Shown here: piece after piece, positions 8,903 through 61,224 of the stretch | How the letters are laid out: the number at the start of each line of letters is the position of its first letter | How positions within the stretch are numbered: the stretch's first letter is position 1 | Source of the DNA: Octopus vulgaris | Lineage: Eukaryota | Assembly: GCA_951406725.2 (NCBI GenBank) | Contig: OX597831.1 | Coordinates: 55,924,001 to 55,988,000 of the forward strand | Length of the DNA stretch: 64,000 nt | Direction of reading: 5' to 3' | Notes under the pieces: model-generated | Database searches by the model: none | Told to the model about the DNA's origin: nothing | Seen by the model: the letters and a program-made list of their open reading frames with translations, nothing else | Program-made: the position numbers and the translations under genes

Positions 8903-8943
<41 letters not shown>

Positions 8944-9005
8944 AAATGGGAGAAGAACGCAAAACATTCAGAAGACGATACAAAAAACACGGACGGGTCA
9001 TTCGA

Positions 9006-9071
9006 AGCCTTCAATCTTCAGTCAAGAACCGGATCATCCTCGCAATTTCGGCTGATTAATCTTGAGATTGC
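9006..9071 (-). ncRNA. Non-circularly permuted hammerhead motif, version 1, copy 1
   Basis: Minus strand GCAAT-C-TCAAGA-ttaatc-AGCC-GAA-ATTGC-(14 nt)-TCTTGA-CTGAAGA-ttgaa-GGCT. Stem III 5 bp, stem I 6 bp, AUC triplet. Host element spans about 8940-9130. Confidence 0.75.
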
Positions 9072-9147
9072 TCCAATCTGGCCAGCCCCAAGGAAAAACT
9101 AAGCTAAGAGCATTAGATTCTTTGGAAAAAAAAATTTATATATATAT

Positions 9148-13460: not shown

Positions 13461-13946
13461 TATATATTCCTCCAATCTGGCCAGCCCCAAGGAAAAACTA
13501 AGCTAAGAGCATTAGATTCCTTGGAAAAAAGCTTCGAATGTATACGAAACAAGGACGGAAAAACGGACGATGTTACACGAATATAAATACAAAAATAATA
13601 CAAAAAAAGCAATAATAATAATAATGACAACAGGGCATCACAACATGCGTCTTTCGACTGGAGACGAATTGAATTCAGCCGGCGTGTTAGGAATTAAGCC
13701 TTTGCGGCAGAGGAAAAATGTCGATGTGACAGCGACCGCTGCCAAACCCAAAAAGGCCTGTAGTCGGCTAACGGTCACGTGAGAAGAGAAGAGAGTGTGT
13801 TGTAGAAGTCGTACAAAGTTTAGTGAAATGTGTACTTACATATAAGAGAACAAAGTGTATGTACGCCGCTATATATATATATATATATATATAAATACAA
13901 AATGAGACAAGAACGCAAAACATCCAGAAGACGTTACAAAAAACAC

Positions 13947-14011
13947 GCCTTTAATCTTCAGTCAAGAACTGGATCATCCTCGCAATTTCGGCTGATTAAT
14001 CTTGAGATTGC
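13947..14011 (-). ncRNA. Non-circularly permuted hammerhead motif, version 1, copy 2
   Basis: Stems I and III are identical to 9006-9071. Differences fall in the linker, the 5-nt insert after the core and the last base of stem II. Confidence 0.75.
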
Positions 14012-14109
14012 TCCAATCTGGCCAGCCCTACGGAAAAACTAAGCTATGAGCATTATATATAAATTTTTAAAAAATGGAGTTTAACGCATATATAATTCAA
14101 ATACTTTTA

Positions 14110-40443: not shown

Positions 40444-40503
40444 CCCCTTCATCAGCTGTCCCTAGTTCAACTCCAGCGTGTTTCGAAGGTGAGGACAGAA
40501 CAC

Positions 40504-40504
<1 letters not shown>
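40444..40504 (-). ncRNA. Non-circularly permuted hammerhead motif, version 2
   Basis: Minus strand CGTGT-T-CTGTCC-tca-CCTTC-GAA-ACACG-(15 nt)-GGACAG-CTGATGA-aGGGG. GUU triplet. Host is about 40318-40504 between (AT)n tracts. Confidence 0.78.
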
Positions 40505-55024: not shown

Positions 55025-56183
55025 TGACAGTTGATCGAATTTAGACTAGTGGACAGTTGATCGAATTTTAGCAAGTGGACAGTTGATCGAATTTACACCA
55101 GTGGACAATTGATCGAATTTGCACATGTAAACAGTTGATCAAGTTTACACCGGTGGACAGTTGATCGAATTTTCGCTAGTGGGCAATTGATTGAAATGCA
55201 AAAGTAGACAGTAGATCGAATTTACACAATTGCACAGTTGATCGAATTTACACCAGTGGACAATTGATCGAATTTTCGCTAGTGGACAGTTGATCGAATT
55301 TGCACAAGAAGACAATTGATCGAATTTTCCCTAGTGGACAATTGATCGAATTTACACCAGTGGGCAGTTGATAGAATTTGCGCTAGTTGACAGTTGATCG
55401 AATTTACACCAGTGGACAGTTGAACGAATGTTTGCTAGTGGACAGTTGATCGAATTTGCACAAGTAGACAGTTGAACGAATTTAGACCAGTAGACATTCA
55501 ATCGAATTTGTGCTAGTGGATACTAGATCGAATTTTCGCTAGTGGACAGTTAATCGAATTTACACAAGTAGACAGTTGAACGAATTTAGACTAGTGGACA
55601 GTCTATCGAATTTTCCCTAGTTGACAATTGATCGAAATACACAATTAGACAGTTGATCAAATTTACACCTGTGGACAGTTGATCGAATTTGCACCATTGG
55701 ATAGTTGATCGACGTTAGACCAGTGGACAGTTGATCGAATTTGCGCTAGCGGACAGTTAATCAAATTTCCACCAGTGGGCAGTTGATAGAATTTGAAAAA
55801 GTAGACAGTTGATCGAATTTACGCTATTAGTGGATCGACGTTAGACCAGTGGACAGTTGATCAAATTTTTGCTAGTGGACAGCTGACCGAATTTACACCA
55901 GCGGACGGTTGATCGAATTTTCGCTACTGCACAGTGGATCGAATTTGCACAAGAAGATAATTGATCAAACTTTCGCTATTGGACTGTTGATCGAATTTAC
56001 ACCAGAGTGCAGTTGATAGAATTTGCGCTAATGGACAGTTGATCGAATTTACACCAGTGGCCAGTTGAACGAATGTTTGCTAGTGGACAGTTGATCGAAT
56101 TTGCATAAGTAGACAGTTGAACGAATTTAGACCAGTGGAAGTCAATCGAATTTTCGCTAGTGGATAGTTGATCGAATTTAGAC
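55025..56183. repeat. Minisatellite, 22-23 bp unit, about 50 copies
   Basis: Consensus GTGGACAGTTGATCGAATTT plus a variable ACACCA/TCGCTA/GCACAA/AGACCA segment. Confidence 0.95.
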
Positions 56184-57442
56184 TTACCACACAGCCACAA
56201 ACTCCACACATCTTCTCAATAGAAAAGTTGCAGTAATACAACGACGATGATAAAATAAGATTTAAATCAGTAAAAACAATCACTACACATTTAAATGTAA
56301 ACAAACCACAAATACACAAAAGCCACTGACACGTACATCCGCAAACCATATACACGCATACATACACACTTACAAACCACAAACACACACACGTCTGAAT
56401 TAAATATGGACGCCAAAAAAAACAACAAAGCAGTAACGTCGACAAAACTGCAATACACAGAGAGAGGGAGAGGCTTGACAACAAATAAATGAACATAAAC
56501 ACATAAACAACATAAGCACAACAACATAAACACAAGAAAAAATCAGTTGGAGATTGGCAATAAACTATTCAACAGCAATAAAGAGGTAAATTAAACCAGT
56601 GCGTGTGTTTTTATTTTATTGGCCAAATGACCGTCCTAAAATTCAACTATATCATTTATAACACGCTTACATATAAAACATCTTGAAAAGCAAATGCATG
56701 ATCCCCTGTTTGGCAAGGTAAAAGGGTTGAATTTCTCTGGGTCAATTGTAGAATATACGAATATTGGAATGTAGTGATACTGAGATACTGAAATACAAGA
56801 TAAACTGAAAAGTAAACAGGATTTTTTGAAGTTGATGGGGGTAAAATCATGAAGCGGGTTAAGGAGCACAGTAGAAAAAGGGTTAGTGTTTGATCTGTGT
56901 GACCTTTGAAGAAAATAAGAAAAGTAAGGTAAGGTAGAAATTATAGAACTTACGATAAGAGTAAAAATTAGATGTTAGATTTTTAAAAAGAAACATGCGG
57001 TTTGAGAAAATTGTCTTAAATACAGAGTGTATCAATGTGGAGAGAAAAAAATGAAATAGAGAAAAATAAACAATGGGAAACAAATTCAAAGAGAAAAAAT
57101 TCCATCCTATGAGCTGGAAGTTTTAGAAATCTTGTGGGAAAATGAAAGAATCCAGAAAACGAAGTAATAATGGAACATTCTATTGCCGGCGCAGAAATTC
57201 CGCACAGTAGACACAAATATAAAAGTAGTACAAGAATGTAATGCATCGTTAATGACTACCAAACTTTGAATTATTTTAACCCTTTTACTTGGTTAAAACA
57301 TTTTCGTAAATTTGTCCTAAAAATGTCCCTGCTTGTTTTCAGGTTTTTAATCTGCTCTTGTTTCAAACATTCTGAAAATATAAACCTTTTCTTTTATATA
57401 TCCCAAGTAACACTGACGGTTGAAGAAAATTGGGAATGTATA

Positions 57443-60779: not shown

Positions 60780-60847
60780 GAACGACCCTTCTTCAGTTGT
60801 CGGCTGTTTTTCTAATCCGTATTTCGAGCAATTCACGACAAGATACG
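60780..60847 (-). ncRNA. Non-circularly permuted hammerhead motif, version 3
   Basis: Minus strand CGTAT-C-TTGTCG-tgaatt-GCTC-GAA-ATACG-(15 nt)-CGACAA-CTGAAGA-aGGGT. AUC triplet. Confidence 0.8.
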
Positions 60848-61224
60848 CCTTCGATAAAACAGTTGCTCCCGCAAAGCAAATTAAATAAAATTTGCGATCT
60901 TGCAGAGGGTCAAGATTGGTGACAAAAACAGCACCGTGAAAACAAACAGGAAGGGCTGCTAAGCCTAAACGAGGTTGTGGTGGCGAACGCGAAGAAACAA
61001 GTCTGAACAGGAGACAAAGAACAATACGTCTTGCCTGTCCAGCTGAAACAGGAAGAAAGAAACCCAAGTTAGGAGAATAGCCGATGGTCACGTGGGGGCC
61101 ACGTGAGCAAAGGAGGAAGAGTGAGGGAGAGAGAGTGGCAGACAGAGAACTGTGAAGGAGAGAGGAAAATATGTGGAGACAGGATAAGAGACAAAAAGAG
61201 GGAGAGGGAGAGGGAGAAGGGGAG

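What the first reader, a model, noticed from the sequence alone, without database searches (positions are those of the whole stretch)
9006..9071. Third permuted hammerhead version, with a 5-nt insertion after CUGAAGA
Seen: GCAAU-C-UCAAGA / AGCC-GAA-AUUGC / UCUUGA-CUGAAGA-uugaa-GGCU. The host is not recognisably similar to versions 2 and 3 yet has the same topology and spacing. The linker UUAAUC can alternatively pair with GAUUGA overlapping the core. Inference: this competing helix could act as an off-state switch.
Basis: partly seen in the sequence, partly recalled or inferred. Interest (0 to 1): 0.78.

Follow-up and report, generated by a model that had tools for sequence, protein, structure and literature searches.

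The report
Core-opened hammerhead ribozyme in animal retroelements
This stretch is one of thousands of copies of a jumping repeat that carries a predicted self-cutting RNA (a hammerhead) with its parts strung in a scrambled order; the apparent 5-letter insertion is likely an illusion, because the missing helix strand likely comes from upstream, a wiring that would be new and would likely be the ribozyme that Naiad jumping genes were thought to lack.

Summary
The motif is real (minus strand, 9006-9071; 0 of 100 shuffled windows give one) and sits about 70 nt from the 3' end of a ~690-nt non-coding, (TA)n-inserting repeat with thousands of copies. (1) '5-nt insertion': stem II pairs better with an upstream strand (GGCUGG, 9082-9087) than with downstream GGCU in 24 of 28 family representatives, with family-matched covariation (0/5000 permutations, against 252/5000 for the downstream strand). 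The chain then enters at stem II and leaves after CUGANGA, so UUGAA lies outside the core. (2) 'Off switch': the UUAAUC helix can form here but is weaker (-6.2 against -11.9 kcal/mol), shows no compensatory change and is broken in sister subfamilies. A further helix (P0) with a kink-turn-like loop braces the fold. The same design ends published octopus and squid Naiad elements, reported to lack hammerheads. 5'-truncated copies pile up just downstream of the predicted cut (22 of 77 against 5 of 55, p=0.008). Cleavage is untested. The scan noted this ribozyme before on other DNA of this genome; those notes prompted the upstream-strand test.

The parts
8940..9134 (-). 5'-truncated copy (about 195 nt) of a ~690-nt non-coding retroelement family; fixed 3' end at 8940-8950
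8908..8941 (.). (TA)n tract at the element's 3' end (target or tail)
9088..9105 (-). 5' flank that can pair with the bases after the core (closing helix P4: 9088-9094 with UUGAAGG, 9102-9105 with GGCU); irregular, G-U rich, weakly supported
   Evidence: 363/5000; 82% and 97% of cells paired
9082..9087 (-). Proposed true 5' strand of stem II (GGCUGG; G10.1 first), entering the core from upstream
9075..9081 (-). 5' strand of extra helix P0 (one A-C mismatch in this subfamily, full pairing in related ones)
9072..9074 (-). Non-bulged strand (GGA) of a kink-turn-like loop between P0 and stem III
   Evidence: k-turn consensus recalled
9060..9071 (-). Cleavage-site block: stem III strand GCAAU, C17 (9066), predicted cut between 9066 and 9065, stem I strand UCAAGA
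9056..9059 (-).
9042..9055 (-). GAAA block: stem II 3' strand UCAGCC, G12-A13-A14, stem III strand AUUGC
9029..9041 (-). Bulged strand of the kink-turn-like loop (GAG-GA-U) and 3' strand of P0 (GAUCCGG)
9015..9027 (-). Stem I 3' strand UCUUGA and catalytic core strand CUGAAGA
9006..9014 (-).

Best explanation
The stretch is the 3' end of a high-copy non-coding repeat that carries all the conserved hammerhead bases in a scrambled order, and it likely folds into a four-strand, core-opened hammerhead ribozyme whose stem II strand comes from upstream, predicted to cut after the C at 9066 and likely carried around by Naiad-type Penelope-like retrotransposons. Order on the RNA: stem II 5' strand - P0 5' strand - cleavage block - linker - GAAA block - P0 3' strand - stem I strand with CUGANGA - exit. 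Shown: sequence, copy number, family-matched pairing of stems I, II (upstream), III and P0. Inferred: the backbone is open between A9 and G10.1, where natural hammerheads tolerate an extra base; the linker and P0 tie the far ends of stems I and II together in place of the usual loop-loop contact; a kink-turn bends P0 back along stems II/III. Inferred function: cleavage of read-through or tandem transcripts sets the ends of the RNA template that a Naiad reverse transcriptase/GIY-YIG protein copies into (TA)n tracts.
For: Upstream strand beats downstream strand in 24 of 28 representatives (2 ties, 2 losses), mean -9.2 against -5.2 kcal/mol, 4.6 against 2.5 Watson-Crick pairs; family-matched in 0/5000 permutations, also within lineages, against 252/5000 and 197/5000 for downstream. 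Compensatory U-A to C-G in L208; L075 keeps the upstream strand and has lost the downstream one. P0 family-matched, 0/2000. Core selection among subfamilies: with the 12 bases left free, 97 of 100 listed copies keep CUGANGA with N7 varying, counted by eye. GA/GA of the kink-turn-like loop in 140 of 148 copies of this family and 29 of 30 Naiad-type ends. Published Naiad_Ovul and Naiad_Obim 3' ends have the same design and were flagged 'HHR_half_core' (Ovul) (read by eye); in squid Naiad_Esco the bases after the core cannot pair with the stem II strand but an upstream strand can (by eye). One Naiad-type end in this genome lies on the same strand about 0.9 kb after an RT remnant. Fixed 3' end, 5' truncation, (TA)n targets and partial tandems match the Naiad features in PMC8557442. 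5' ends are enriched in the 17 positions at and below the cut: 22 of 77 against 5 of 55 just above, p=0.008; 7 of 47 in a set chosen by the 3' end only, p=0.003 against the upstream rate.
Against: No cleavage assay. Within this family both partners are kept: downstream stem II is 100% paired in the 18-row alignment and intact in 119 of 148 copies against 111 of 148 for the upstream one (4 against 5 pairs, truncated copies included). The closing helix P4 is not significant across families (363/5000). Representatives are related, hand-picked for an intact 5' flank, and mostly single decayed copies. Only 3 of 77 and 0 of 70 truncated copies start exactly at the cut; the two sets overlap in part and truncation is also frequent further 3' (0.002-0.006 per nt). 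Nested folding does not recover the fold (z 0.3-0.7). The RT hit is below Pfam's cut-off (25.5 against 29.6 bits), was seen in 1 of 6 extended loci, and no autonomous element sharing this family's own sequence was found. This copy has an A-C mismatch in P0.
Confidence: 0.7

Rival explanations
1. One reading: an ordinary type-SGC hammerhead with stem II made by downstream GGCU and a 5-nt bulge after CUGAAGA, switched off by the UUAAUC helix.
For: GGCU/AGCC is 4 Watson-Crick pairs (-8.3 kcal/mol) and is kept in 18 of 18 aligned rows; the spacer is 5 nt in 100 of 100 listed copies; the alternative helix can form in 114 of 148 copies; type SGC is a tested, cleaving topology (PMC10085705).
Against: Downstream pairing is G-U rich or absent in other families and not clearly family-matched; no compensatory change in it or in the 'off' helix; PMC10085705 states that no known alignment has more than 1-2 inserted bases there; the extra helix reported for type SGC is not seen (354/2000).
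Confidence: 0.1
2. Two-state variant: in this lineage upstream GGCUG and downstream GGCU are both real partners of CAGCC, so the RNA switches between a core-opened fold and an SGC-like or inactive fold, for example before and after the 5' flank is cut away.
For: Both strands are conserved in the lineage; after cleavage the 3' product loses the upstream strand and only GGCU is left; the exit strand can also pair with the kink-turn strand in the nested minimum-energy fold.
Against: GGCU conservation is equally explained by pairing with the conserved upstream AGCU (97% of cells); relatives L075 and L120 have lost GGCU.
Confidence: 0.12
3. A structured but non-cleaving relic: the fold serves only as a protein-recognition signal for the retrotransposon, or is inherited without function.
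For: No assay; PLE hammerheads of animals cleave poorly in vitro (PMC4209133); few copies start exactly at the cut.
Against: Catalytic bases stay fixed across families whose stems have all turned over; the cleavage triplet keeps NUH; truncations step down at the predicted cut.
Confidence: 0.08

Closest known systems
Type-SGC hammerhead ribozymes (HRIMA-1 and variants; Eckert et al. 2023, PMC10085705; parts 2-6 of 8 read, supplement not opened)
   Same: Cleavage block, GAAA block and CUGANGA occur in that 5'-3' order; short linker from stem I to stem II; pseudoknotted; a fourth helix near the far end of stem I.
   Different: Here the stem II 5' strand does not follow CUGANGA but likely comes from upstream, breaking the block that the paper assumed indivisible; the fourth helix pairs with the 5' flank, not the 3' flank; kink-turn-like loop; found in thousands of copies in an animal genome, whereas the paper found SGC types only in metatranscriptomes.
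Naiad Penelope-like elements (Craig et al. 2021, PMC8557442; passages and supplement parts 15, 24, 25 and metadata rows read)
   Same: (TA)n targets, 5' truncation, partial tandems, motif near the 3' end; octopus and squid Naiad consensus ends show the same design.
   Different: The paper reports no canonical hammerhead in Naiads; this family is non-coding (about 690 nt) and shares only the ribozyme design, not alignable sequence, with the Naiad ends.
Type I / minimal hammerheads of PLE pseudo-LTRs and non-LTR retrozymes (PMC4209133 passages; bioRxiv 10.64898/2026.07.22.740005 passages)
   Same: Hammerhead near the 3' end of PLE-derived, non-autonomous, sometimes tandem units (706-709 nt arrays in the sister subfamily); an unpaired base is tolerated at the 5' end of stem II.
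   Different: Those are circularly permuted type I motifs that often need dimers; this one has a full stem III and a non-circular, four-strand wiring.

Membership tests
Hammerhead ribozyme | Core CUGANGA, GAAA, NUH cleavage triplet | tested here: met
   CUGAAGA, GAAA, AUC in this copy; 97 of 100 listed copies keep CUGANGA
Hammerhead ribozyme | Three helices around the core, with covariation | tested here: met
   Compensatory changes in stems I, III and upstream II
Hammerhead ribozyme | Site-specific self-cleavage after H17 | not testable with these tools
   Only indirect: truncation step at the site
Hammerhead ribozyme | Match to an Rfam hammerhead model | tested here: not met
   No match at gathering score or at E up to 10; expected for a non-nested order
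Type-SGC hammerhead | Order cleavage block - GAAA block - CUGANGA | tested here: met
Type-SGC hammerhead | Stem II strand directly (0-2 nt) after CUGANGA | tested here: not met
   5 nt spacer at best; upstream strand favoured in 24 of 28
Type-SGC hammerhead | Helix between the G-to-C linker and the 3' flank | tested here: not met
   354/2000 permutations; the linker pairs with the 5' flank instead, 0/2000
Naiad PLE (non-autonomous derivative) | (TA)n insertion, 5' truncation, partial tandems | tested here: met
Naiad PLE (non-autonomous derivative) | ORF with N-terminal GIY-YIG and C-terminal RT | tested here: not met
   This family is about 690 nt with no such ORF; only an RT remnant was seen, upstream of a related Naiad-type end
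Naiad PLE (non-autonomous derivative) | 3' end shared with an autonomous Naiad | tested here: inconclusive
   Same ribozyme design and kink-turn-like loop; no autonomous element with this family's own 3' end was found
Kink-turn | C-stem, 3-nt bulge, tandem G-A/A-G, NC-stem (consensus recalled) | tested here: met
   Sequence pattern only: GA/GA in 140 of 148 and 29 of 30 copies; bending not tested

The most novel reading that the evidence does not exclude
An active hammerhead of a seventh wiring, outside the six block permutations thought possible: the chain enters and leaves through the middle of the catalytic core, a kink-turn-braced helix replaces the loop I/II contact, and this, with type-CSG forms in nematode Naiads, is the ribozyme of the Naiad clade, present in more than ten thousand copies in this genome and cutting in vivo.
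Probability: 0.55. Interest if true: 0.82.

Novelty: new variant of a known kind. Interest (0 to 1): 0.66.

Why it matters
It would break the rule that CUGANGA and its stem II strand are one indivisible block, add a natural four-strand, multiply pseudoknotted hammerhead with a kink-turn, and move non-circularly permuted hammerheads from obscure metatranscriptome RNAs into animal chromosomes in large numbers. It would also remove the argument, made from Naiads, that Penelope-like elements spread without hammerheads, and makes the open question of what PLE hammerheads do testable from truncation patterns and a 110-nt transcript.

Tried and rejected
Rfam at gathering score and at E up to 10: no hammerhead. 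Nested folding: uninformative, z 0.3-0.7. Register with the extra bases at position 7 (CUGA-5 nt-GA): rejected, since the second GA is lost in the UUAAA and UUAGA subfamilies while the first is kept. Dimeric fold across tandem units: not needed, all strands lie within 100 nt. The abundant intact PLE (781 aa, RT plus C-terminal GIY-YIG) as partner: no hammerhead called in the 4 copies fetched and no similarity to this family. Expression: no RNA holder listed on record; four runs guessed to be RNA were laid and hold the motif as contigs, which shows neither transcription nor ends. 3' ends of copies relative to the cut: 1 of 23 ends there, no signal. Conservation of Y-Y-R-R-R after the core fits pairing with the 5' flank but all changes are transitions, so it is not counted as evidence. 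An extra anti-kink-turn helix (exit strand with the GGA strand) holds in some subfamilies only, by eye; left as a lead. Literature searches that found no description of this wiring or of permuted hammerheads in Naiads: (open-access library only; listings seen). The review PMC3334697 is not held. The supplement of PMC10085705 was listed but not read; bioRxiv supplements are closed; either could hold related alignments.

Full report
Observation. The motif is on the minus strand at 9006-9071 exactly as written. A descriptor for the three hammerhead blocks in any order finds three motifs with cleavage block, GAAA block and CUGANGA in that order in the window and none in 100 shuffled windows. Rfam has no match. 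This order is the type-SGC permutation of Eckert et al. 2023 (PMC10085705, parts 2-6 of 8 read), which cleaves in vitro, was found only in metatranscriptomes, and for which the authors state that no alignment has more than one or two bases between CUGANGA and its stems.

Host. The motif belongs to a repeat: 1,917 candidates, 40 scored, best matches 92-98% identical; 3,599 exact pattern matches against 3 control; a looser pattern for all families gives 31,788 overlapping matches against 387. Copies share a fixed 3' end about 65 nt after the motif, followed by (TA)n, and are variably 5'-truncated. The full unit is about 690 nt, non-coding, flanked by (TA)n, often preceded by a partial copy of its own 3' end; a sister subfamily forms 706-709-nt tandem arrays. 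These are the features described for Naiad Penelope-like elements (PMC8557442, passages). That paper says Naiads lack canonical hammerheads but marks 8 families 'HHR_half_core', among them octopus and squid. Read by eye, the published Naiad_Ovul and Naiad_Obim ends show the same strand order. Matching ends are abundant here (1,609 candidates, 40 scored), and in 1 of 6 extended loci such an end follows an RT remnant on the same strand (RVT_1, E 1.3e-5, below cut-off). From this likeness the genome is inferred to be octopus-like.

The 'insertion'. With the 12 bases between stem I and GGCU left free, all 100 listed matches (of 6,709; control 0) have 12 bases; 97 keep CUGANGA with N7 varying, and the next five vary among subfamilies (UUGAA, UUAAA, UUAGA, UUGAG, CUGAG, counted by eye). 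Earlier notes of this scan mentioned an extra upstream strand; I tested it. For 28 representatives, hand-picked from the clusters for an intact 5' flank, ten registers upstream and ten downstream were scored against the strand before GAAA. Upstream won in 24, tied in 2 and lost in 2 (single copies with U in place of G10.1 but five further pairs); mean -9.2 against -5.2 kcal/mol; upstream pairing is family-matched (0/5000 permutations, also within lineages), downstream pairing only weakly (252/5000; 197/5000). The upstream helix differs by family (GGCUG, GGCCG, GAAGG, GAGCA, GAACG, GACAC) and always opens with G10.1-C11.1. In squid Naiad_Esco the bases after the core cannot pair with the stem II strand while an upstream strand can (by eye). 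Against this: inside the window's lineage both partners are kept, and the downstream one is intact in 119 of 148 copies against 111 for the upstream one. Downstream GGCU can, however, also pair with a conserved upstream AGCU (97% of cells). A closing helix between the 5' flank and the bases after the core is plausible but not significant across families (363/5000).

Further structure. The 3' end of the G-to-C linker pairs with the 5' flank (P0): own -8.7 against cross-family -6.6 kcal/mol, 0/2000, in 27 representatives, with compensatory changes in the lineage. The helix described for type SGC (linker with 3' flank) is not supported (354/2000). Between P0 and stem III lies a 3-base bulge with tandem GA/GA, the recalled kink-turn consensus, in 140 of 148 copies of this family and 29 of 30 Naiad-type ends, which links the two designs. 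In one search the registers of stems I-III were optimised per family, so those three permutation values are partly circular; the alignment counts (18 rows) are the cleaner test.

The 'off switch'. UUAAUC/GAUUGA is worth -6.2 kcal/mol against -11.9 for the upstream stem II, which itself uses the last two bases of the linker. It can form in 114 of 148 copies, but has no compensatory change and all 500 shuffles reach its paired fraction; it is broken in 7 of 7 CUGAG copies, in the tandem subfamily and in L208, and is not family-matched (363/2000). It is best read as a chance complement in one lineage.

Does it cut? Among 77 copies chosen by GAAA-to-core pattern, 22 begin within the 17 positions at or below the predicted cut and 5 of the remaining 55 in the 16 above (Fisher p=0.008). 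Among 70 copies chosen by the 3' end alone, 7 of 47 at risk begin in that interval (0.0088 per nt) against 10 starts over the next 120 nt (p=0.003), with 0.002-0.006 per nt further downstream. Only 3 of 77 and 0 of 70 begin exactly at the cut and the sets overlap in part, so this is suggestive, as expected if cleaved RNA is copied and the junction loses a few bases, not proof. RNA runs gave nothing usable.

Mechanism. Inferred: strands assemble co-transcriptionally into stems II, P0, III and I; linker and P0 clamp the far ends of stems I and II; the backbone is open between A9 and G10.1, a position where an unpaired base is known (PMC4209133, passages). Cleavage of read-through or tandem transcripts sets template ends for a Naiad RT/GIY-YIG protein acting in trans, in line with the role proposed for PLE hammerheads in that paper. 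No autonomous partner with this family's own end was found; the abundant intact PLE here has a C-terminal endonuclease and no similarity.

Verdict. A real hammerhead-type motif, not a member of type SGC by two failed defining features, but working like one; new variant of a known kind. No description was found in eight searches of the open library. The scan has reported the same ribozyme from other pieces of this genome; a look-up by this sequence returned nothing.

Noticed in passing
window 13466-14058 (-): A second insertion of the same family: a partial copy with the full ribozyme (UUAAA variant, 13946-14027), (TA)n, then a new unit that stops within one base of the predicted cut site, leaving a ~50-nt terminal direct repeat. 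A single case (1 of 23 internal 3' ends).
   Followed up: partly
window 40444-40504 (-) and 60785-60890 (-): Versions 2 and 3 belong to other high-copy families with the same upstream stem II and P0; the version 2 copy is truncated 5 nt above the cut and lacks the upstream strand. Some of these families have an AGUA/GAA loop (loop-E-like, recalled) in place of the kink-turn-like loop.
   Followed up: partly
Supplement of PMC8557442, part 15: The 3' ends of Naiad_Hpol and of the nematode Naiad listed before it read by eye as perfect type-CSG hammerheads with compensatory differences in all three stems; PMC10085705 knew only two CSG sequences, from metagenomes.
   Followed up: partly
L151-L154 (G000, e.g. 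C16:20834000-20843900): An apparently recent PLE family with an intact 781-aa RT plus C-terminal GIY-YIG ORF, a separate upstream ORF of up to 479 aa without Pfam match, and a 3' region of tandem CCAAT/TGACGTC-like boxes; no hammerhead was called in its 3' region.
   Followed up: partly
L132/L152, L176 (type I), L129 (type III): Canonical circularly permuted hammerheads in other repeats of this genome.
   Followed up: no
window 55026-56184: A 26-nt tandem array of about 45 copies.
   Followed up: no
L257, L258: Head-to-tail arrays of the sister subfamily with 706-709-nt period, each unit with one ribozyme, like non-LTR retrozymes.
   Followed up: partly
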